NCBI RefSeq assembly: GCF_004010195.1
Contig: NC_057753.1
Location: 3,071,162 to 3,091,161 of the forward strand
DNA from: Chiloscyllium plagiosum
Lineage: Eukaryota
DNA length: 20,000 nt
Direction: 5' to 3'
The number at the start of each line of letters is the position of its first letter. Position 1 is the stretch's first letter. The notes under the pieces are model-generated. The model was not told the origin of the DNA. It made no database searches and saw only the letters and a program-made list of their open reading frames with translations. Below are positions 506-20,000 of this stretch, piece after piece. The position numbers and the translations under genes were made by a program.

Positions 506-1032
506 ATTTAGGTATTAGATGCAGATCACCTAGATATCCAAAACAATTGCTACAGCTAGAAATCAAACAAGAAAAAGACATGAGTTGGGAGAAGGGGCCA
601 CTCCCCTTCCATTGTAAAACTGAATTGTTCTTGCCTCTGATTTATGACCACTTTTCAAACAGCATGCTTTGTTAAATTACTTTGTTAAAGTGACAGCATC
701 ATCACAACTGTGCTCCTGTTAATGCCAGAGAAGTTTAAAGGGGCAGATGCCTTTTTTTAATGCACAATTTTACACTAATCATGCACTTTGATGGGTTTCA
801 CTATTTGTTTTCAGGTCTTATGCTTTTGATCTGTTAAATGCTTCACCTGAATGGCTGTGTTAAAGCAAGGAAATCAATACCCATAACACACGCCTTAATT
901 ATTGAAGTTGTGCCACATTTCAAAATGCATATTTAACACAGCATCTTGAAAAATTAGCTATTTTGTTGGACTTCAATAGTCATATCCACAATCTGTTATA
1001 ACTTTATATCTCTGTCTCTCTATCTATTACAG

Positions 1033-1958
1033 CTAACCTGGCAGTAATTGTGATCCTGTCTCAACGGAGATGTGGTCTATCTGGATGTATCATTTATTAC
1101 ATCATGTCCATAGCAGTGGCAGATCTTCTGGTTATGGTCATGACCGTAATATTAAACCGGATTGCTGGGATATATTTTCCATACAGCTTCCTGTCCATCA
1201 CACCAGTATGCAGTGTACGCAATGCTTTAAATATGGCAGCTACGGATAGTTCTGCCTGGCTGACAGTCGTTTTCACCTTTGACCGATTTGTGGCCATTTC
1301 TTGCCAGAACCTGAAAATAAAATATTGCACCAAGAAGGTGGCAGCGTGGGTTATAGGAATTGCATGTGCATTGACCTGCCTAAAAAATATCTTCAGGTGC
1401 TTTCAATTTGAACCGAGGTACATAATTAAAGGCATACCCTGGTTCTGTGACATAAAATCAATATATTATACTTCACCAGCATGGACTGCATATGACTGGA
1501 TTCGACCCACTTTAAACCCTTGTCTCCCATTCATTTTGATTTTCCTGCTTAATGCCCTGACCGTCAGACACATTCTCGTGGCTAACAGAGCCCGTAAGAG
1601 ACTTCGGAATCAGAGAATTGAAGAGAATCAGAGTGACCCAGAGGTAGAGAAGCGCAAAAAGTCCATTATTTTACTTTTTGCCATCTCAGGCAGCTTCATC
1701 CTGTTGAATTTATTGTATTTTGTAACAATCCTTTATGTCCGAATTGTGAATTCTACTTATTCCTCAGTTTCTGACTTCAATAATTCCACATTTGTTCTCC
1801 AACAGAGTGGATTTATGCTTCTGTTATTGAGCTCTTGCACCAACCCATTTATTTATGCTGGGACACAACGTAAATTCAGAGACGAGTTAAAGAATGTGAT
1901 TAAATATCCAAAGATCCTATTTTTTAAAACTGTGAAACTGGAAAATAGAAAACTCTAA
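1033..1958 (+). CDS. Class A orphan GPCR, GPR139/GPR142-like; final coding exon (end of TM1 to C-terminus)
   Basis: Pyrimidine tract plus acceptor TATTACAG|CT at 1032/1033, phase 1, giving (A)NLAVIVILS. Contains IAVADLL (TM2), TPVC (C3.25), FTFDRFVAI (DRY-like), PWFC (ECL2 Cys), NPFIY (NPxxY) and stop TAA at 1956-1958. The GTG at 1050 is not the true start; exon 1 was not found. Confidence 0.9.
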
Positions 1959-3680: not shown

Positions 3681-4291
3681 GAAAACCCAATGTGAAACTT
3701 TACTTTGAAAATGGGGAGCAGGGTTCCAAGATGCAAGGCATTAAGAAGTGAGCTGTTTATAGATGGAAAGTTAAAGAGACATGAAGTTATAATGCCCTTG
3801 AACTTCCATACTGATACTGGGAATGTGCACTCTGTCCATCTTCCCCAGATAACATCTCCTTCCACATTTGTACACATTATTGGGCTATGACATTGTAACA
3901 TTTTCTCACTGGATTTCAATGTGAGGCAAGTAGAATTACAGTTATTTCATGCTGTGCAGCACTTCAACTCCAAGACAGTGCAACACAGGCTGTGGAACAA
4001 CTTCTGTTTCAACGTGTTCAGCTGCAGGAAGGGGTGTGCACCATTTCAAGGGTCACTGAATCAGTCTGATTCCGATTTTGGTTTTAGAAATGACAGGAAA
4101 ACATCCCACTGAATTTGATCATCGTCTTAACTTTAAAAAGCTGAGATGGTATATTTCATTTGGAGTGAGTAGTAAAATGAGAAAATGGCTGTGGTTGAAA
4201 CCACTATTGTATTGGAAACTCCAAATGATAGAGTTCTGGCACAGAAAGAGGTAATTCCACAAGGTGCGTTACTTTGAAAGAACAGTTGAGA

Positions 4292-4915
4292 CATAAAACG
4301 TAAGAACATTCGAAAAGATCATGGCCAGTCTTTTTGTAGACGCAGCTCCACTTACCTGCCAACTCATCGCTATCCTTAATACCTTTACTCTTCAAAAATC
4401 TATCTATCTTTGTCTTAAAAATATTCAATGAGGTAGCTTCACCTGCCTTCTTGAGCTGGGAGTTGCTCAGATTCACAACCCTTTGGGTGAAGACGTTCCT
4501 CCTCAACTAAGTTCTAAATCTGCTCCCTCTTAATTTTGAGGCTATGACCCCTCGTTCTAGTTTTCCCACCAGTGGAAATAACCTCCCTGTTTCTATGTTA
4601 TCTACTTGCTTCGTAATTTTATCTGTTTCTTATAAGAACCTCCCTCCTTCTCCTATTGTCCCAGCCTTCTCAATCGCTCTTCATAAGCCAACACTGTCAA
4701 CTCTGGAATGAATCCAGTCAAACTTCTCTGCACTCGCTCTAGCGCCAGCACATCTTTTCTCAAGTAAGGAGACCAAAACTACACAGTACTCCAAGTGTGG
4801 CCTCATCAGAATCTACACAACTGCAGCATAACCTCCCTGTTTTCAAACTCGATCGCTCTGAAGTACAATATTCCCTTTGCCTTCTTAGTTACCTGCTGCA
4901 CCTGCAAACCGACTG
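4292..4915 (-). mobile_element. Older CR1-like LINE 3' fragment
   Basis: Minus-strand peptide RRNVFTQRVVNL...ATSLNIFKTKIDRFL, typical of the CR1 ORF2 C-terminus; CCACACTTGGAGTACTGTGTAGTTTTGGTCTCC (PHLEYCV.FWSP-like). Confidence 0.8.
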
Positions 4916-5269
4916 GTTTTTCTTGCCTTGTTGATCGAGAGTGATATTTGTAGCAATGTTAACAGCAGGAAGTTAAATCTTTCACATTATTACCGAGTAT
5001 TTGCCTTGTACCACTAGCTATACATTCGCTATATTGTGTGTTTCCAATCCATTGCAACCTTTCTTTTCATGCCATCATTCCATCTTTAATTTGTGTTATG
5101 GTTTAACAAGATGTGGCCATCACTGGCCAAAGCCAGCATTTTATTCTCCATCCCTCATTTGCCTGGAGAAAGTGGAGATAATCTGCCTTATTGGATCACT
5201 TCAGTCCTTGTGTTCAGGTTCCTGAGTGATTGCATGTGACATTTGCAGTTCTGGTGCGAAGCATCGATG

Positions 5270-5500
5270 TTGAGAGTGTGGTGCTGGAAAAGCACAGTAG
5301 GTCAGGCAACATCCGAGGAGCAGGAAAGTGGACCTTTCAGGTGGGAGCCCGTCATCAAGAATGAGGCCTCATTCGTGATGAAGGGCTCGGGCCCGAAAGG
5401 TCGTTTCTCCTGCTCCTCGTATGCTGCCTGACCTGCTGTGCTTTTCCAGCAACACACTCTCCAACTCTGATCTCCAGCATCTGCAGTCCTCACTATCTCC
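5270..5500. mobile_element. Palindromic Penelope-like terminal-repeat insertion (family A) with degenerate hammerhead cores
   Basis: ~96 bp inverted arms meeting without a spacer at GAATGAGG|CCTCATTC (5366/5367); candidate TSD 5255-5269 / 5501-5515; homologous to 15244, 15489 and 18835. Confidence 0.75.
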
Positions 5501-5613
5501 TGTGAAGCATCAACACCAACTCCACTGATTCTGGTCGACCTATTGTCCCTTTTAAATTTCCAATCAGTAGGAAATGTATGTTCCTTTCAACATTTGCACA
5601 AAATGAATAAATC

Positions 5614-5685
5614 TTCACTGACTGAAGCCAGGAATCGCGCCCTGGTGGCTAAAACACCAAATCCTAGTCACTATGGCACCAGAGA
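5614..5685 (-). pseudogene. Degenerate tRNA-Glu-like pseudogene
   Basis: Reverse complement TCTCTGGTGCCATAGTGACTAGGATTTGGTGTTTTAGCCACC...CGATTCCTGG...GTCAGTGAA aligns with vertebrate tRNA-Glu (TCCCTGGTGGTCTAGTGGCTAGGATTCGGCGCTTTCACCGCC...GTCAGGGAA); the anticodon and T arms are disrupted. Confidence 0.65.
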
Positions 5686-8024
5686 AACTGTCTCTAAGCT
5701 TTAACACTTGACTTGCCTGCACTAACTTTCCCATTTCCTCTTTCATTTCCACCATTTTCACCAGAGACAATTTTCTCTGACAAAATGGCATGTTTAAGTA
5801 GAACACAAGCAATTCCCTCAGTTAATTACACCCATTGCTTTGAGCGTATCGGTAATGCCAACGCTTTTCCTCCTTTCGGACAGTTCCTAATACCTACAGT
5901 CTTTGCCCAAGCTTTTACTTAACTCACCAGAAATGTGTGTCGATGTCAAACTGTGCGTCGGGGCAGCACCATAGGATTTTTCATGAGGCTAAATGAGCTG
6001 CATCAATTTGAATTGTTATCAGACAGAAACAGAAAGAGACAAAATCATCTCTTGCACCTTTTTATAAGGAGATTCTTCAACAGGCGTTTTCTTACTATCT
6101 ACTATGCCCAATACACCAGAAATTTGGAGACTTCAGTCAGAATACAACCTTCTGTTTGCAGGGGACATTAGTTCCAACTATTCATAGTTGTCCACAGAGT
6201 GAAGCTGCCTTATCCCTGCTAATAGCCTTCTTAATCTTCTATGGAAAATCTCTCAGGCCTTTCCATTTTTCCAGATGGTTAGTGCCTAACTGGATGCAAT
6301 ACTTTGTTTGAAGCAAGCTACTGCTCAATATTCGTTCAAAATAAAATCTTTGCAAATGTTCTCAATGCCTCAGTTTTCAAAGTCTGCAATGCAGTATCCC
6401 TCATTCATCCTGGTCACAATGTATCATGGTACATTCACATTTTCGTTCAAATATACATGCCAGAAGCCTCTGTTTATGCAATATCTTTGTAGTCACATGT
6501 GTTATGTCACATTGATTCATTGTGTTTTTCAAAAATATTGAAATACTTCACAGTTCTCTGAATTAAATTTCATATCCCTCTTGACATCTATTCTGAGAAT
6601 CTCTTTATAATCGCTTTGGTGTTCTACTCGATGAACGCACTCATCAACATATCAGAGTGCCTTACTGTACACAGATTTTCCTGTTGCACCAAATTCAGGT
6701 CATCTCGAAATACCAAGTAAGCAGGGTCCTATAATTTGAACCATGAGGGTCTCCACTATAACATTGCATCCAGTTGGGTAAGTGAAAAGAAACTCGGCTT
6801 GCTGAATAACACAATCCCACCAGTAATGGGAATTCAAGTTTAAAATAATCATAGAAAATGCTGTAAATTAACAGAATCTTGGGCAGCACATGAGCAGCTA
6901 GAATAGGTTTTACATTTCATCTTGTGACATTCAGCCATACCTCTTACTTATCTTAGTTTTACGTTTTCTCTGAAACCGTTTAATACGAAGGCTCACGCAG
7001 AAAAATAGAAGTGATTCAGTAGCCCAAAAACAAATACGCTTCATTCACCACAGGAGAAAAAGAAATCTAATCTCAAAAGTAACCCATTCGGCTGTTCATT
7101 ATTTTACATTATTGCACCATCATGATTACCTTTTGGAAATATAGCAGCACTGACCAAGTTTGTAACAATTTTAATTTTATTAACAATCACTAGGGGGAGT
7201 CATTTCTACCCAGAAAGTACACAATGAGAAAGAAATGAAACGCAGAAGAGAGGGGGTAAAAACAGATTTGGTGTTAGATGCATGTTAAAGAGGGTGAAAG
7301 AAACAGACAAATTACCATAGAGAACCATGCTGACACAACAAGGAAGCAGAAACTATGTGTGACTGTGGAACCTGTGCATCTCGTCGCTTTGTTTGGTGCA
7401 TATTTAAACAATGGAAAGGTTTACACAGGTATGACATGTTGCACAGTTCAATTCTCATTTGTCCAGTTCTCCATAAAAATAGGCAGCAAAATGTAATAGG
7501 CTGTGAATGAGAGGACAGTAACATTTTTTTAATCCCACAAGTGTTTCCAAATGTATTTGAGAATGACTTCCTGAAGTTTCACAGTAGCCACAAAATATAT
7601 TTGAATTATTCCAGTAATTGCCTACCAGAAGAGGCACTCACTTCTTGGCTCATATCTTACGCATAAAGATACTAACAACTCCGTTAACCAGCCATGTCGT
7701 AGCTCTCAGTCTCTTGCTTCCTTCTCCAGTGAAACATTGCAACTCGTAATTTAATGGCATTTGGTATCACTGTAGATTGTCCTTTATAGGGGAAAAACAA
7801 AGCTTTCACATTCGCAGCTGCCTGAACTACGAGGTGCAAAGTGAGATGATGAGAAATCGGAGAGAGTGAAAAGGGGACCTCATCAGAAGAAAATATCAAA
7901 AATGGAACTGACAAAACTAATGGGAGGCCACGCAAAGACATTGGCACAAACATGAAACATCTATTCACAAGCATTCAACAACACGCAGACACTCAAAAGT
8001 AAATGTGTACCTTTATGATTTTGA

Positions 8025-8281
8025 TATTTTTCCTTGGATAGTGATGGCGAACATGAGTGGACATGGCTTTAAACTGAGGAGTATTAGATAGTAGTAAGGG
8101 TGTGGAATGCACTGCCTGCAACAGTAGGACACTCGCCAACGTTAAGGGCATTTAAATGATCATTGGATAAACATATGGATTAGAATGGAATAATGTAGGA
8201 TAGATAGGCTTCAGATTGGTCCTACAGGTCAGCACAACATCGAGGGCCAAAGGGCCTGGACTGCACTGTAAAGTTCTATGT
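8025..8281 (+). mobile_element. CR1-like LINE 3' end, same subfamily as 2991-3330
   Basis: GTAGTAAGGGTGTGGAATGCACTGCCTGCAACAG...CAACATCGAGGGCCAAAGGGCCTG...GTTCTATGT matches the reverse complement of 3000-3210; has an internal deletion. Confidence 0.8.
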
Positions 8282-8527
8282 AGATGATAATGAATATTAC
8301 TTATCAGAATTTGCAGTTGCTGTGGTGCTGTAAATTAAATATAATGTACACATTTTGATATAACACTTTTGTATTTAGTGGCACTATTATAAACGTTGCA
8401 ACTAACATCCAGAAAGTAACAAATATTTCCATGTTTGTTTGACATTGTAATGACTCTGGCTTATGTCACAATGGGTTAAATGTTCTAAATATCAAGCCGA
8501 CAAATTAAGAGTTAAATATTTCTGAAT

Positions 8528-8695
8528 TAGAGTCATAGAGTCATAGAGATGTACAGCACGGAAACAGACCCTTCGGTCCAACCCGTCCATGCCGACCAGA
8601 TATCCCAACCCAATCTAGTCCCACCTGCCAGCACTCGGCCCATATCCCTCCAAACCCTTCCTATTCATATATCCATCCAAATGCCTCTTAAATGA
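8528..8695 (-). mobile_element. HER1-like (CR1 clade) LINE, 5'-truncated 3' end
   Basis: (TAGAGTCA)2 tail; nearly identical to the reverse complement of 16243-16398. Confidence 0.88.
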
Positions 8696-8701
8696 ACCGA
8701 G

Positions 8702-8880
8702 CATTATGGGCAATTTAGCATGGCCAATTCACCCTAACCTGCACATCTTTAGACCGTGGGAGGAAACCAGAGCACCCAGAGGAAACCCACGCGGACACGG
8801 AGAGAATGTGCAAACTCCACACAGACAGTCGCCCGAGGCTGCAATCAAACCAGGGACCCTGGTTCTGTGAGGCAGCAATG
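8702..8880 (-). mobile_element. HE1-like SINE, 5' and central part
   Basis: Reverse-complement match to about 65-245. Confidence 0.85.
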
Positions 8881-8955
8881 TCACCATTCAGTATTAATAG
8901 CAGGCTGCCAAATTCAAGTGTAAAATTTGCATCTCATATGTTCTTCCCTTCTTCA

Positions 8956-9050
8956 CTTCTGATGGAGCAATACTGGACTCAAAATGCTAACTCTGCTCTC
9001 CTGCCACAAACACTGCCAGACCCATTAATTTCCTCCTGCAATTTCTCTTT
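8956..9050 (+). mobile_element. Highly decayed Penelope-like terminal-repeat remnant
   Basis: CTGATGG...GACTCAAAATGCTAACTCTG...ACTGCCAGACC resembles the CTGANGA...GAAACG...GATGCTGCCTGACC layout; similar to 14255-14345. Confidence 0.4.
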
Positions 9051-12182: not shown

Positions 12183-12440
12183 AAGATATAAAACAGACCT
12201 AAGAGGAAACTTATTCACGCAGAGTGTGTGTCTGTATGGAATGAGCTGCCAGAGGATGTGGTGGATGTTAGTACAATTGCAACATTGAAAAGGCATCTGG
12301 ATGGGTATATGAATAGGAAAGGTTTGGAGGGATATGGGCTGGGTGGTGGCAGGTGGGACTAGATTGGGTTGGGATACCTGGTTGGCATGGACGGGTTGGA
12401 CCAAAGGGTCTGTTTCCATGCTGTACATCTCTATGACTCT
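12183..12440 (+). mobile_element. HER1-like LINE 3' end inserted in the GPCR pseudogene
   Basis: Matches 16141-16398 and ends in CTCTATGACTCT; removing it restores CTCTCCAG|ATGCATC (LSRCI). Confidence 0.9.
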
Positions 12441-13063: not shown

Positions 13064-13188
13064 TGTGGACAGAAGAATACACATTATACTTTCCCTTTAT
13101 GGAGCTCTTTGATTGGTTTGACCATATTATAACTCCTCAGCTCCCACTCTTTCTGACTGTTCTGTTTAATGCTGTGACTGTTAGACAT

Positions 13189-13438
13189 AAGTATGTAAGT
13201 TACCTCACTGAGCTGGAAGGTTCGTTTTCAGATGTTTCATCACCACTACTAGGTAGCATCATCAAAGGGAGTCTCCGGTGAAGTGTTGGGACATACCACC
13301 AGAGCTTCACCGGAGACTCTCACTGATGATGTTACCTAGTCATGGTGACGAAACATCTGTAAGCTAACCTTCCAGCTCAGTGAGCAAACTTACATACTTA
13401 CCATCAACCTGGGCTACAAATCTTCTCAAAAACCACCA
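13189..13438. mobile_element. Inverted-repeat Penelope-like insertion (family B) with hammerhead-like core
   Basis: AAGTATGTAAGTT..CTCACTGAGCTGGAAGGTT...GAGTCTCCGGTGAAG pairs with CTTCACCGGAGACTC...AACCTTCCAGCTCAGTGAG..AACTTACATACTT; core CTGATGA-T-GTTACC/GGTGAC-GAAAC at 13323-13354; TSD ACTGTT(A/G)GACA at 13177-13187 and 13439-13449. Confidence 0.75.
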
Positions 13439-13739
13439 ACTGTTGGACACATTCTGCCGGCCAGTAGAAACCGTAAGGGGGCTCTGCGCTCAAGTGGGGA
13501 AAACAAAGGTCGTCAAAGAGGCAGAGAGCCAGAGAAAGTCTGTCATTTTACCACAGGTATTTGCAGTATCTGGTATTTTCGCCATGACCAGAGTGCACTT
13601 CCTATTTCTCATAGGGTAGGGAAGCTTTTGCAACACTCCATGCACACCGCAGAAACTGGGAAACTGGTGCAAAAACACAACTTGCGACCCAACAACGCCC
13701 CCTGTCCATGACTGGGCTCTGACATTGACCAAGGGAGGG

Positions 13740-14607: not shown

Positions 14608-15243
14608 GTAAGTAATTGGGAGAAAGCAAACTTCAATTGGGTATGAATGGATCTGATTCAGATTAACTGGAATCAAAACTGCAACTGAACATTGTACTGC
14701 TTTTCAGTAGAGAAAGTTCTGACATTGTCAACGTATATACTCACGAATGAGGGCACACATCTCCAAAGCTCCCGAGATGACAAATTAGATAAATTAAGAT
14801 GGAAAAGGAAAATGCACTTATGACAGATATGAGGTTGATAGTTCGACCGATATCCAGGCTAAATTTGGAATGTTCGGGGAGAATCAAATGATGAGCTATC
14901 CGAAGCAGAGCAGACGTACGAAAAGAAGCCAAAATTAATATAGACGTGAACCAAAATGTCTTCAGTCCGCATATACGTAGTAAAAATGTGTTAAAGGAGA
15001 AGTAGATCCAATTAGGAACTGAAAAGGGAGCAGAGGAGATGGAAATTGATAGAATTTGTGATAGAAACAAACTAAAATAAAAAGATAGAAACTGAAGAGG
15101 AGATGGCTGAGATTTCAAATATAGATTTTGTACCCCCTGTGTAAAGAAAGAAAATGCTATTCAGGCTTTAGAAAAAGGGAAGGAAATTAAGAGACCTGAA
15201 AGGTTTAACATTGTAACAGATATAAAATTGAATAAGCTGTGAG

Positions 15244-15372
15244 CTGAAAAATGTGTTGCTGGAAAAGCGCAGCAGGTCAGGCAGCATCCAAGGAGCAGGA
15301 GAATCGACGTTTCAGGCATAAGCCCTTCTTCAGCTCTGATCTCCAGCATCTGCAGTCCTCACTTTCTCATAG
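15244..15372. mobile_element. Family A Penelope-like insertion: inverted segment joined to the sense 3' end
   Basis: Perfect 16 bp TSD TTGAATAAGCTGTGAG (15228-15243 and 15373-15388); minus-strand core CTGAAGA-AGGGC-TTAT-GCCT-GAAACGTC. Confidence 0.8.
15306..15333 (-). ncRNA. Minimal type I hammerhead ribozyme motif
   Basis: CUGAAGA + stem II GGGC/GCCU + GAAAC-GUC; activity not shown. Confidence 0.55.
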
Positions 15373-15488
15373 TTGAATAAGCTGTGAGTCATACTTGATG
15401 AGATGCGTCCAAGGATTATTGAAGACAGTTACAGTAGAAATTGTAGTGGCAAAGACTAATTTTCCCTGAGACTTGGGACTGGTGACAG

Positions 15489-15636
15489 TCCCTGATTCTA
15501 TTCCTGATGAAGGGCTTTTGCCCGAAACGTCGATTTTCCTGCTCCTCGGATGCTGCCTGAACTGCTGTGCTTTTCCAGCACCACTCTAATCTAGACTCTG
15601 GTTTCCAGCATCTGCAGTCCCTGCTTTTACCTAACC
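15489..15636 (+). mobile_element. Family A Penelope-like terminal-repeat insertion
   Basis: 11 bp TSD ACTGGTGACAG (15478-15488 and 15637-15647); colinear with 5370-5500. Confidence 0.8.
15504..15531 (+). ncRNA. Minimal type I hammerhead ribozyme motif with intact core
   Basis: CTGATGA-A-GGGC-TTTT-GCCC-GAAAC-GTC; palindromic ACGT at the helix III position; helix I pairing is weak. Confidence 0.65.
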
Positions 15637-15907
15637 ACTGGTGACAGAAGGCTGGAGAATTGCAAATGTTACACTTCTCATTCAAAAAAGATAAGGTCAG
15701 CAACTACAAACCAGTTAAACGTGGTGGGGAAGCTTTCAAAAATGATAATTCAAATTAAAATGAACAGTAACTGGAGCAAATTTGGCTTTATTAAGGAGAG
15801 CCATCATGTCTAATGACATGATATTTTTGATGAGGTAATAAAGTTAGTTGTTAGGGTAATGTTGATGTGCTTTACATGGACTTCTGAAATACATGCTGTG
15901 CAACAGA

Positions 15908-16398
15908 AACTTGAAAGGGCTCAGAAAAGATTTACAAGATGTTGCTAGGGTTGGAGGGTTTGAGCTACAGGGAGAGGCTGACCAGGCTGAGGCTGTTTTC
16001 CCTGGAGCATCGGAGGCCGAGGAGTGACCTTACAGAGGTTTATAAAATCATGAGGGGCATGGATAGAATAAATAGACAAGGTCTTTTCCCTGAGGTGGGG
16101 GAGTCCAGAACTAGAGGGTGTAGGTTTACGGTGAGAGGGGAAAGATTTAAAAGGGACCTAAGGGGCAACTGTTTCAAGCACAGGGTGGTGCCTGTATGGA
16201 ATGAGCTGCAAGAGGAAGTAGTGGAGGCTGGTACAATTGCAACATTTAAAAGGCATCTGGATGGGTATATGAACAGGAAGGGTTTGGGGGGATATGGGCC
16301 AGGTGCTGGCAGGTGGGACTAGATTGGGTTGGGATATCTGGTCGGCATGGACGGGTTGGACCGAAGGGTCTGTTTCCGTGCTGTACATCTCTATGACT
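15908..16398 (+). mobile_element. HER1-like (CR1 clade) LINE 3' fragment
   Basis: ORF 15939-16322 GLEGLSYRERL..LFSLE.RR...RVV.VWNEL...FKRHLDGYM is the CR1 ORF2 C-terminus; CTCTATGACT tail. Confidence 0.92.
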
Positions 16399-16424
16399 GA
16401 GGTGGGAGCTCATGGAATAACAGA

Positions 16425-16874: not shown

Positions 16875-17194
16875 TATATTTTGGCAGAGTCTCCCATGAG
16901 TTTGGACTGTCTGGCAGTTCCCATTCCCAGAAGGAATTTATGACAATCCAGCAGCTTTCGCGGTCACACTTTTTTGCCACTGCTGGCCCCACAAACGCTC
17001 GTTCATTTCCATTTCACGACGTGCCTTTGTGTTTCCACGGGTTCTTACTCACTCTGGTTTTCCTTTCTGACATCCGTTTCACAGGGCGTTCGGATGAGGG
17101 ACGCCTCCGGTCGGGGAACCGGCGCCCAACCTCCCACCTGGACCTGATCGAGTCGCCCAATTTGTGACAACCCCAACTCCGTCAAAGATTGGGT

Positions 17195-18469
17195 ATGGAA
17201 GGAGGGAACAGCGGAGGAGAACTGTGCGCCGAGTGCGGGCAGAGCTTCCCTCGGTCGCCTGACCTGCCACGACATGAGTGCGGGCCCGTCGGGGTGAAGC
17301 CGTGGAGGTGTGGAGTCTGCGCAAAAGCGTTCAATTATCCGTCGGATCTGGACCTGCACCAGCGCAGTCACACTGGCGAGAGGCCGTTTATCTGCTCCAC
17401 GTGCGGGAAGGGATTCGCTCGTTCCTCCTACCTGCTGTTACACCAGCGAGTGCACACCGGGGAGAAGCCGTTCACCTGCTCTGTGTGTGGGAAGGGATTC
17501 ACTCAGTCCTCCAACCTGCAGACACACCAGCGGGTTCACACCGAGGAGAGGCCTTTTGAATGTCCGGACTGCGGGAAATTCTACAAAAGCTCCTGGGACT
17601 TGATGCGGCACCAACGTGTCCACACCAACGAGAGGCCGTTCAGGTGCTCGTGCTGCGGGGCCGGTTTCAAACGTTCATCTCACCTCACTGTCCACCAGCG
17701 GACTCACACTGGGTGGAAGCTGTTCACTTGCTCGACCTGTGGCAAGGGATTTACCCAGTCGACCTCCCTGCTGTTGCACCAGCAAGTTCACAGCGGGGAG
17801 AGCCCGTTCACCTGCGCCTTGTGCGGCATGGGCTTCACTCAGAAATCCCATCTGCTGACCCACCAGCGGGTTCACACTGACGAGAGGCCGTTCAAGTGCC
17901 TGGTTTGTGGAAAGGGCTTTAAGAGTCCCGGTGAACTGACGCGGCACCAGCGCGTTCACTCGGACGAGAGACCGTTCAGGTGCTCCGAATGCGGGACTGG
18001 CTTCAAGCAGTCGTCTCAACTGACTGTCCACCAGCGGGTTCACACCGGGGAGAGGCCCTTCACCTGCTCCGAGTGCGGGAAGGGCTTCAGTTGCTCGTTC
18101 AACCTGCTGACCCACCAGCGGGTTCACACCGGGGAGAGGCCCTTTATCTGCTCCCAGTGCGGGAAGGGATTCACTCAGTCGTCCAGCCTGCTGACGCACC
18201 AGGGCGTTCACACCGGCGAGAGGCCGTTCGCCTGCTCCAGTTGCGGGAAGGGGTTCGCCCGGTTGTCCACCCTGCTGACCCACCAGCGCGTCCACACCGG
18301 GGAGAAACCCTTCAGCTGCTGCGAGTGTGGGAAGGGGTTCACTCAGTCGTGCCACCTGCAGAGACACCAGCGTGTCCACACTGGGGAGAGGCCTTTCACC
18401 TGCACCGTGTGCGGGAAGGGATTCACTCAGTCGTCCAACCTCACGATGCATCAGCGAGTTCACAAGTAA
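17195..18469 (+). CDS. Tandem C2H2 zinc-finger protein (14 canonical fingers plus 1 degenerate N-terminal finger), 424 aa from the first ATG
   Basis: Uninterrupted ORF of 28-aa CxxC...HxxxH repeats with TGE(K/R)P linkers; acceptor TTTCACAG|G at 17084/17085; first ATG at 17195; stop TAA at 18467-18469; possible polyA signal ATTAAA at 18591. Confidence 0.93.
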
Positions 18470-18834: not shown

Positions 18835-18920
18835 TAGGCAAAAGTGAAGGCTGCGGATGCTGGAGACATCAGAGTCGAGAGTGTGGCGCTGGAAAAGCGC
18901 GGCAGGTCAGGCAGCATCCG
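18835..18920 (-). mobile_element. Family A Penelope-like 3' fragment without the ribozyme core
   Basis: Reverse-complement match to 5420-5500 and 15547-15633. Confidence 0.75.
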
Positions 18921-19287: not shown

Positions 19288-20000
19288 CAGAGTCATACAG
19301 CACAGAAACAGACCCCTCAGTCCTACTCATCCATGCAGACCAGATGTCCCAACGTAAGCTAGTCCCATTTGCCAGCACTTGGCGCGTATCCCTCTAAACC
19401 CTTCCTATTCGTATACCCAGCCAGATGCCTTTTAAATGTTGTAATTGTACCAGCCTCCACCACTTCCTCTGACAGGTTACACCCGAAACTCGACTTTTCC
19501 GACTCCTGATGCTGCTGTGTTCTTCCAGCCTCCTGCCTGTCCACATTCCATACACGTACCACTCTCTGTGTGAAAAGGTTTTCCCACCACAGGGAAAAGA
19601 CTTTGTCAATTAACCCCGTCCATGGCCCTCATGACTTTTTAAACCTCCATAAGGTCACTACTCAGCCTCCGACGCTCCAGGGAAAACAGCCCCAGCCTGT
19701 TCAACCTCTCCCTGTAGCTCAAACCCTCCAACCCTGGCAACATCCTTGGAAATCTTTTCTGAGCCCTTTCAGGTTTCACAACATCTTTCCGATAGGAAGG
19801 AGACCAGAGTTGCACGCAATATTCCAACAGTGGCCTAACCAATGTCCTGTACAGCTGCAACATGACCTCCCAATTCCTATACTCAATACTCTGACCAATA
19901 AAGGAAAGCAGACCAAACACCTTTACTATCCTATCTACCTGTGACTCCACTGTCAAGGAGCTATGAACCTGCACTGCAAGGTCTCTCTGTTCAGCAACAC
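19288..20000 (-). mobile_element. HER1-like LINE 3' region running off the window, with a small foreign insert at 19476-19543
   Basis: ORF 19639-19974 QLYRTLVRPLLEYCVQLWSP...GLEGLSYRERLNRLGLFSLERRRL; AGAGTCATA tail at the left end. Confidence 0.92.

What the first reader, a model, noticed from the sequence alone, without database searches (positions are those of the whole stretch)
15244..15636. Short TSD-flanked insertions with intact minimal hammerhead-ribozyme cores
Seen: two related 130-150 bp non-coding insertions with perfect TSDs (16 bp and 11 bp), each carrying CUGANGA-stem II-GAAACGUC (15504-15531 on +, 15306-15333 on -). Further family members lie at 5270-5500 and 18835-18920. Established: Penelope-like element termini carry minimal type I hammerheads whose short palindromic helix III is thought to work through dimerisation. 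Inference: this is an abundant shark family, either truncated Penelope ends or a non-autonomous SINE/retrozyme-like RNA element. No Penelope RT or GIY-YIG coding sequence was seen in the window.
Basis: partly seen in the sequence, partly recalled or inferred. Interest (0 to 1): 0.7.

Follow-up and report, generated by a model that had tools for sequence, protein, structure and literature searches.

The report
Penelope retroelement stubs with minimal hammerheads
The two short insertions are real and belong to a very abundant repeat that carries the known minimal hammerhead-ribozyme motif; they are likely dead stubs of a Penelope-type jumping gene, likely copied from RNA that the ribozyme had not cut, and so are ordinary rather than a new ribozyme element.

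Summary
Observation confirmed with corrections. Both insertions (129 and 148 bp) have perfect 16- and 11-bp TSDs, and their hammerhead cores are far beyond chance (3 strict hits in the window, 0.014 expected). Only 15489-15636 holds a complete minimal hammerhead. 15244-15372 is internally inverted and has lost helix I; the copies at 5266-5500 have broken cores. The family is huge: over 52,000 contigs per DNA run lay on a 71-nt stretch. That is the published signature of endonuclease-bearing Penelope-like elements. No copy starts at the predicted cleavage site, and catalytic G12 decays like other CpGs, so genomic copies look neutral. The link to an RT/GIY-YIG frame could not be tested: no genome is held and all my searches for one failed. 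This scan has reported such stubs many times on other DNA (391 findings, at least 25 genomes; unchecked notes). Verdict: new shark-type members of a known kind; low interest.

The parts
15228..15243 (.). left TSD of insertion 1 (16 bp); its last 3 nt (GAG) are complementary to the first 3 nt of the tail, a likely priming microhomology
   Evidence: joint 15241-15337 on opposite strands
15244..15333 (-). insertion 1: inverted, tail-less body of family 1, starting at C3 of the hammerhead
   Evidence: 90% identity to insertion 2 over 81 nt
15306..15333 (-). hammerhead core CUGAAGA-A-GGGC/UUAU/GCCU-GAAA-CGUC; helix I 5' strand absent, G10.1-U11.1
15334..15372 (+). insertion 1: forward tail (35 family nt plus 4 non-family nt), continuing the family sequence where the inverted body ends; 5-nt TTCAG microhomology at the inner junction
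15373..15388 (.). right TSD of insertion 1
15478..15488 (.). left TSD of insertion 2 (11 bp)
15489..15499 (+). 11-nt non-family filler at the 5' junction of insertion 2
   Evidence: family match starts at 15500; upstream family letters are CCTC
15500..15636 (+). insertion 2: family 1 body plus tail, simple orientation; family match ends near 15632
15504..15531 (+). complete minimal hammerhead core CUGAUGA-A-GGGC/UUUU/GCCC-GAAA-CGUC; helix I C-G, U-A, U.U, A-U; predicted cut after 15531
15637..15647 (.). right TSD of insertion 2
5255..5511 (.). family 1 fold-back insertion 5266-5500 with 11-bp TSD (1 mismatch; 5255-5265 / 5501-5511): inverted arm 5266-5366, forward arm 5367-5467, one-sided 33-bp tail 5468-5500; both cores broken; both arms reach about 8 nt upstream of C3
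   Evidence: (I9)
18840..18920 (-). family 1 3' fragment with tail, no hammerhead, no TSD found; starts 16 nt past the predicted cut
13177..13449 (.). second, unrelated hammerhead family: fold-back insertion 13188-13438 with 11-bp TSD (1 mismatch), arms 13188-13283 / 13305-13400, one-sided 38-bp tail 13401-13438, core at 13323-13357 (+) with 6-bp stem II, degenerate core on the other arm
   Evidence: (I8)

Best explanation
These TSD-flanked inserts carry the minimal hammerhead motif and the inverted-arm-plus-tail layout, and are likely one-off, dead insertion stubs of the terminal repeat (pLTR) of an endonuclease-bearing Penelope-like retrotransposon, likely copied from RNA that the ribozyme had not cut. 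Proposed steps: (1) inferred from PMC11167929: the element's GIY-YIG domain nicks both target strands; the 11-16-nt stagger becomes the TSD (TSDs shown). (2) Inferred: reverse transcription starts at one of two sites 33-39 nt apart, about 90-95 and 130 nt downstream of C3; the stretch between them is the tail (one-sided tails shown at three loci). (3) One primer gives a simple copy (insertion 2). Two primers, one on each strand, give an inverted tail-less arm plus a forward tailed arm (insertion 1, 5266-5500, 13188-13438); the layouts are shown and the priming is inferred. In insertion 1 the forward copy stops where the second primer sat, as in twin priming, with 3-nt and 5-nt microhomologies at the junctions (shown). 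(4) Copying stops at or just upstream of the hammerhead in 4 of 5 family 1 arms (shown), likely because the RNA begins there or by 5' truncation (not separated here). (5) The hammerhead is likely under selection only in the source elements, where it would cut with help from a second copy or the element's protein; genomic stubs decay neutrally (shown for CpG sites) and are predicted not to cleave.
For: TSDs and motif beyond chance. The motif fits the metazoan PLE consensus CUGANGAH-G..C-GAAA-palindrome-UH, with the extra base after A9, G10.1-C11.1 and C15.2-G16.2 (PMC4209133 results and Fig. S3). An inverted 5'-truncated arm with a one-sided 33-39-bp tail occurs at 3 of 4 TSD-flanked inserts, in two unrelated families; published tails are 30-40 bp, with 8-10-bp TSDs in rotifer PLEs. 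A purified PLE cleaves and extends both strands, starts at two adjacent internal sites that delimit the tail, and uses mainly uncut RNA. 0 of 5 family 1 arms begin at the predicted cut: starts are about -8, -8, -4, 0 and +43 relative to C3, with the cut after +27. Fold-back joints recur at several different positions in other copies (5 of the 10 listed joints are opposite-strand), as expected if they form afresh at each insertion. Abundance: 52,387 and 54,666 contigs laid on 71 nt in DNA runs of two organisms, 6,864 in a third. Non-CpG variation of 2% or more: 0 of 10 core positions against 9, 9 and 10 of 20 free positions (Fisher p 0.012, 0.012, 0.006). G12 is lost by CpG decay in 13.5, 15.7 and 7.0% of depth, against 9-18% at the non-core CpG 15547/15548. 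Paralogous contigs match both flanks but hold only 104 and 131 nt where the window has about 533, consistent with an empty site (table 8).
Against: No RT/GIY-YIG frame was linked to the family here: no genome is held, five collection scans gave one chance bacterial hit, and three protein searches gave no Penelope protein. No longer copy lies in the window (0 matches to the upstream motif). No compensatory change in stem II was seen in the 4 window copies, and the read tables cannot phase changes. The Fisher test is weak: 6 rows were hidden, depth sums are not copy counts, and 4 of the 10 core positions lie near the alignment edge where mismatches are clipped (with the other 6 alone, p is about 0.05, worked by hand). 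The empty-site contigs were not displayed, so a single TSD copy was not seen, and they are about 100-125 nt shorter than a clean empty site. No cleavage or priming was tested.
Confidence: 0.85

Rival explanations
1. A non-autonomous, ORF-less short element (SINE-like) derived from a PLE terminal repeat: a roughly 140-nt master RNA transcribed on its own and mobilised in trans by a PLE protein.
For: Most copies seem short: loose ends upstream of 15500 agree for about 4 letters (CCTC) and then fall to 0.33-0.46 agreement, against 0.61-0.87 at 15559 downstream. No ORF was found. pLTR sequences alone can be mobilised in trans.
Against: The five family 1 arms in the window have four different starts and three different layouts. 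Loose-end consensus in two contig sets still shows shared letters further upstream (…AAGCCTC), so longer copies likely exist. Contig loose ends are biased towards unique flanks. Unchecked earlier notes on this genome report protein-coding parents.
Confidence: 0.1
2. A non-LTR retrozyme: tandem units with a working type I hammerhead that cut out, circularise and reinsert as monomers.
For: Solo monomers of PLE-derived retrozymes are described, including in one chondrichthyan genome.
Against: No tandem units in the window; 5 of the 10 listed joints go back 40-51 nt, each in a single contig. Described retrozymes carry canonical hammerheads in tandem repeats, whereas this one is minimal. Copies do not begin at the cut. 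Raw RNA reads lie on both strands, 79% run on into unlike sequence, and no pile-up of starts or ends was found, although that poly(A) library could not capture circles.
Confidence: 0.03
3. The inverted layouts arose after insertion (local inversion or fold-back repair) or by self-priming on an antisense template, not by priming from both target strands.
For: Self-priming on an antisense template is the published proposal for head-to-head PLE junctions with palindromes. The hinge at 5366/5367 contains a short palindrome.
Against: In insertion 1 the inversion breakpoint falls at the tail boundary, and the target's own 3' end is complementary to the RNA at that point. The TSD is perfect around the rearranged unit. 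The same boundary recurs at three loci in two families. Both strands are extended in vitro. This rival concerns the mechanism only, not the PLE identity.
Confidence: 0.15
4. Chance motif in an unrelated repeat (for example a MITE).
For: No Rfam hammerhead match; fold-back copies resemble MITEs.
Against: 0 of 2000 shuffles gave 2 hits against 3 observed. Two families with unrelated stem II sequences keep the same core. The one-sided tail and variable 11-16-bp TSDs are unlike MITE termini (established knowledge, recalled).
Confidence: 0.02

Closest known systems
Minimal hammerheads (min-HHR) in pLTRs of metazoan Penelope-like elements (Cervera and de la Pena 2014, PMC4209133; parts 1-2 of 4 of the main text and parts 1-2 of 3 of the supplement read)
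   Same: CUGANGAH box with the extra base, G10.1-C11.1, GAAA-C-G-U-C with no helix III, short helix I; thousands of dispersed single copies; pairs on opposite strands close together. Insertion 2 closely resembles the listed Acropora Neptune and Nematostella motifs (4-bp stem II).
   Different: No cartilaginous fish is in the paper's Table S1 or in the Fig. S3 alignment as extracted. Copy numbers here appear higher than the 4,000-9,000 reported for coelacanth and Xenopus. The parent ORF was not seen here.
Complex insertions of EN+ PLEs: inverted 5'-truncated copy, one-sided 30-40-bp tail, TSD (Craig 2021 PMC8557442 and Arkhipova 2013 PMC3846280; passages read)
   Same: Inverted tail-less arm at the 5' side, tailed forward arm, whole unit inside one TSD, microhomology junctions.
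   Different: Here the forward part is reduced to 35-135 nt with no coding sequence; insertion 1 keeps only the tail in forward orientation. TSDs are 11-16 bp against 8-10 bp in the rotifer examples.
Poseidon element of Anolis carolinensis, PAc (Frangieh 2024, PMC11167929; parts 1-2 of 4 read)
   Same: Hammerhead about 120-130 nt upstream of the reverse-transcription start region; two start sites that delimit a tail; uncut RNA as template.
   Different: In PAc the ORF starts at stem II. Here no frame is conserved across subfamilies, and the 3' end is pyrimidine-rich, not AC-rich. Clade not determined.
Non-LTR retrozymes of animals (Cervera 2020 PMC7229834, passages; Li 2026 bioRxiv 10.64898/2026.07.22.740005, parts 1 and 3 of 5 and passages)
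   Same: Short, non-coding, type I hammerhead, PLE-related.
   Different: Defined by tandem units that each carry a hammerhead and by circular RNA; these inserts are dispersed, TSD-flanked, often inverted, and not bounded by the cut site.

Membership tests
PLE minimal type I hammerhead | CUGANGA box plus unpaired base before stem II | tested here: met
   15504-15511 and 15333-15326; broken in both arms at 5266-5500
PLE minimal type I hammerhead | Stem II opening with G10.1-C11.1, then GAAA | tested here: met
   insertion 2: GGGC/GCCC; insertion 1 has G-U at this pair
PLE minimal type I hammerhead | Palindromic 15.2-16.2, no helix III, U-H at the cut | tested here: met
   A-C-G-U-C in insertions 1 and 2; ACGU self-duplex only -1.7 kcal/mol
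PLE minimal type I hammerhead | Short helix I | tested here: met
   met in insertion 2 (C-G, U-A, U.U, A-U); absent in insertion 1
PLE minimal type I hammerhead | Conservation of core and covariation of helices across the family | tested here: inconclusive
   core 0 of 10 against free 9-10 of 20 variable positions (with edge bias and hidden rows); no compensatory stem II change in 4 window copies
PLE minimal type I hammerhead | Self-cleavage as dimer or with the PLE protein | not testable with these tools
   needs an in vitro assay
EN+ Penelope-like element | Single ORF with telomerase-like RT and GIY-YIG endonuclease | tested here: inconclusive
   absent from the window; no genome held; indirect searches found none, which is weak because those collections held almost nothing of this host's repeat
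EN+ Penelope-like element | Inverted 5'-truncated copy adjacent to the insertion | tested here: met
   15244-15333, 5266-5366, 13188-13283
EN+ Penelope-like element | 30-40-bp tail on one end only | tested here: met
   35-39, 33 and 38 bp
EN+ Penelope-like element | Short TSD of variable length | tested here: met
   16, 11, 11 and 11 bp
EN+ Penelope-like element | Partial tandem forming direct pLTRs around the ORF | not testable with these tools
   no long copy in the window and no genome
Non-LTR retrozyme | Tandem units, each with a type I hammerhead | tested here: not met
   no tandem array of the family in the window; only single-contig go-back joints
Non-LTR retrozyme | Unit ends at the ribozyme cut; abundant circular RNA | tested here: inconclusive
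   0 of 5 arms start at the cut; no start or end pile-up in one poly(A) raw-read run that cannot show circles

The most novel reading that the evidence does not exclude
The stubs are run-off ('strong-stop'-like) copies of the front of the PLE transcript: the RNA starts about 8 nt upstream of the hammerhead, reverse transcription begins internally about 95 or 130 nt in, from one or both nicked target strands, and falls off the uncut 5' end. Tens of thousands of such stubs would be an in vivo map of transcription start, priming sites, nick stagger and two-strand priming for a retroelement class whose cycle is known from one in vitro system. The run-off idea was taken from earlier notes of this scan; I tested it only on 5 arms and on read loose ends.
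Probability: 0.5. Interest if true: 0.45.

Novelty: new member of a known kind. Interest (0 to 1): 0.2.

Why it matters
As an identification it is ordinary: minimal hammerheads at PLE ends, scattered in thousands of truncated copies, have been described since 2014. What remains is modest. Cartilaginous fish are not in the 2014 survey tables I read, and my five paper searches listed no paper describing these families; most subscription journals, Repbase and Dfam were not searchable. The junctions also record the PLE mechanism: insertion 1 looks like twin priming at the two tail-defining start sites. Counted across a genome, such junctions could test in vivo the internal-initiation model from the Anolis element and whether the ribozyme ever cuts the template that is inserted.

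Tried and rejected
Whole-genome work: no genome held. Rfam at E up to 10: no hammerhead; the miRNA hits at 13253-13335 and 5311-5422 reflect the fold-back arms. Pattern scans for longer copies: viral contigs 0 and 0, metagenome contigs 0 and 1, genome contigs 0, plasmids blastn no match. The one hit, L001, lies inside a GC-rich, bacterial-looking reading frame and was rejected as chance. Protein routes to a parent ORF: 15 and 2 candidates, none significant. The representative search gave 3 hits: two repetitive proteins, and P0003, a gene model joining an LTR-type RNase H fragment to an antisense copy of this repeat, which says nothing on parentage. No RNA holder listed among the indexed runs. 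The raw poly(A) single-cell run shows both strands and no start or end pile-up, but cannot show cut or circular RNA. Summed contig depth was not used as a copy number. A conserved 3' structure (GAUGCUG pairing with CAGCAUC around the tail boundary, z about -2 in one copy) was not supported by covariation: 1 of 14 pairs had a double change, in one sequence. An extra cap-derived G, reported in earlier notes, is not evident at the window's junctions; the hinge at 5366/5367 is ambiguous by one base. Sequence look-up in earlier findings found nothing. Supplements of the 2026 bioRxiv preprint were closed and may list chondrichthyan families that bear on novelty.

Full report
Observation. Insertion 1 spans 15244-15372 between perfect 16-bp repeats, and insertion 2 spans 15489-15636 between perfect 11-bp repeats; chance expectation is 5e-7 and 4e-4. 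A strict minimal-hammerhead descriptor (CUGANGA, optional base, stem II of at least 4 pairs, GAAA, two bases, U, H) finds 3 sites in the window: 15504-15531 (+), 15333-15306 (-) and 13323-13357 (+). The mean in 2000 dinucleotide shuffles is 0.014, and none reached two hits. Rfam lists no hammerhead at E up to 10; I infer this is because the motif lacks helix III. Pfam finds only a C2H2 array (17168-18466) and a 7TM receptor (1002-1955) above curated cut-offs among the 150 longest of 172 frames of 52 aa or more, and no RT or GIY-YIG domain.

Anatomy. Insertion 2 is simple: an 11-nt filler, then family sequence from 4 nt upstream of C3 through the hammerhead to about 15632. It has every feature of the published consensus, including a short helix I. 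Insertion 1 is rearranged: a 90-nt body on the minus strand, beginning exactly at C3, is followed by a 35-nt forward piece that continues the family sequence from where the body ends, plus 4 extra letters. Its core letters are intact but helix I cannot form, and G10.1 pairs with U. The last three letters of the left TSD are complementary to the first three of the forward piece, and the inner junction has a 5-nt microhomology. The locus at 5266-5500 is a head-to-head fold-back within an 11-bp TSD; both arms reach about 8 nt upstream of C3, only the forward arm has the last 33 nt, and both cores are broken. The piece near 18840-18920 lacks the hammerhead and a TSD. A second family, unrelated in sequence, has the same layout at 13188-13438: 11-bp TSD, 96-nt arms, a one-sided 38-nt tail and a hammerhead with a 6-bp stem II.

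Family. On the 71-nt hammerhead stretch, 52,387 and 54,666 contigs were laid from DNA runs of two organisms and 6,864 from a run of a third; these counts show great abundance but are not copy numbers. Depth over both insertions is millions against tens in the flanks. Contigs of a paralogous locus match both flanks but hold only 104 or 131 nt where the window has about 533, consistent with an empty site, though their sequence was not displayed. A contig of the second organism spans the right junction of insertion 2 with no substitutions and one gap, so the insertion likely predates that split. Non-CpG variation at 2% or more falls on N7, loop II and positions downstream of the cut (9, 9 and 10 of 20 free positions) and on 0 of 10 core positions (Fisher p 0.006-0.012). 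This test is weak: six rows were hidden, and four core positions lie near the alignment edge. CpG decay hits the catalytic G12 at 7-16% of depth, like a non-core CpG at 9-18%. I read this as selection on source elements and none on the genomic copies. No compensatory change in stem II was seen. Raw poly(A) reads lie on both strands, mostly run on into unrelated sequence, and show no pile-up of ends; that library cannot show cut or circular RNA.

Mechanism. Published EN+ PLE insertions are mostly 5'-truncated, often carry an adjacent inverted copy, and have a 30-40-bp tail on one end, with short TSDs and microhomology junctions. The purified Anolis element cleaves and extends both target strands, starts reverse transcription at two adjacent internal sites that delimit the tail, uses mainly uncut RNA, and its hammerhead cuts only with the protein present. 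The window's inserts fit this directly. One primer gives insertion 2. Two primers give an inverted tail-less arm and a forward tailed arm; in insertion 1 the forward copy halted at the second primer, and at 5266-5500 and 13188-13438 both copies ran on to the hammerhead's front. None of the five family 1 arms starts at the predicted cut, and four contain the uncut site, so their template was uncut there. The layouts, TSDs, microhomologies and start positions are shown; nicking, priming and the parent element are inferred. Folding predicts that the monomer pairs its core with itself (-11.4 kcal/mol) in preference to the hammerhead fold (-5.2), and that the fold-back loci form long hairpins of about -150 kcal/mol, so these copies are unlikely to cleave. 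Published monomers of this class show no cleavage.

What could not be shown. The defining RT plus GIY-YIG frame was not linked to the family. No genome is held, collection scans found only a chance hit, and protein searches found no Penelope protein. Those collections hold almost none of this repeat, so the blanks are weak. Membership therefore rests on motif and architecture. A short non-autonomous derivative is not excluded (about 10%); a retrozyme is unlikely (about 3%). Whether the clustering of 5' ends just before the hammerhead marks the RNA start or is ordinary truncation is open: 4 of 5 arms start between -8 and 0, and raw-read loose ends agree only over about 4 letters further upstream, but the sample is small and the reads are weighted by expression.

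Comparison and novelty. The motif class, its dispersal in thousands of single copies and its occurrence as close opposite-strand pairs are in Cervera and de la Pena 2014. No cartilaginous fish appears in that paper's Table S1 or Fig. S3 as extracted. A 2026 preprint reports PLE-related retrozymes in its one chondrichthyan genome (supplements closed), and a whale shark preprint notes an expansion of Penelope-like elements (passages). This scan holds 391 findings with the same key words in at least 25 genomes, and several on this genome report protein-coding parents and a shared start point; these are unchecked notes, used as leads only. The run-off reading in the novel case came from them. Verdict: real, correctly spotted, a new member of a known kind; interest 0.2.

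Noticed in passing
Both arms read CAUC, so the palindrome at 15.2-16.2 is lost in both.
   Followed up: partly
window 5266-5500: Both arms share GAAAG in place of GAAAC, a change not among the 40 listed variants in four runs (6 rows hidden). This hints that both arms were copied from one RNA molecule, or were homogenised later.
   Followed up: partly
window 15228-15647: Two independent insertions of different subfamilies of the same family lie only 89 bp apart (TSD to TSD); paralogous contigs appear to lack both.
   Followed up: partly
window 15486-15494 and 15615-15623: A 9-bp repeat links the 5' junction of insertion 2 with its own tail; three tail letters in it differ from the family majority, so the filler and tail may have been copied from one another.
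   Followed up: no
window 15548-15615: Predicted long-range helix (GAUGCUG with CAGCAUC) enclosing a small hairpin and the tail boundary; a candidate protein-binding or priming structure (z about -2); not supported by covariation.
   Followed up: partly
window 17168-18466 (+): 433-aa open frame with about 14 C2H2 zinc fingers.
   Followed up: no
window 1002-1955 (+): Intronless 318-aa rhodopsin-family 7TM receptor frame with no ATG at its start.
   Followed up: no
window 15899-16400, 12228-12438, 8534-8880, 19289-20000 and others: Many high-copy repeats that I recall as CR1-type LINE 3' ends and associated SINEs (families D2-D7; depth); names recalled, not tested.
   Followed up: no
P0003: A public gene model contains an antisense translation of this repeat fused to an LTR-type RNase H fragment, a likely annotation artefact.
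   Followed up: yes
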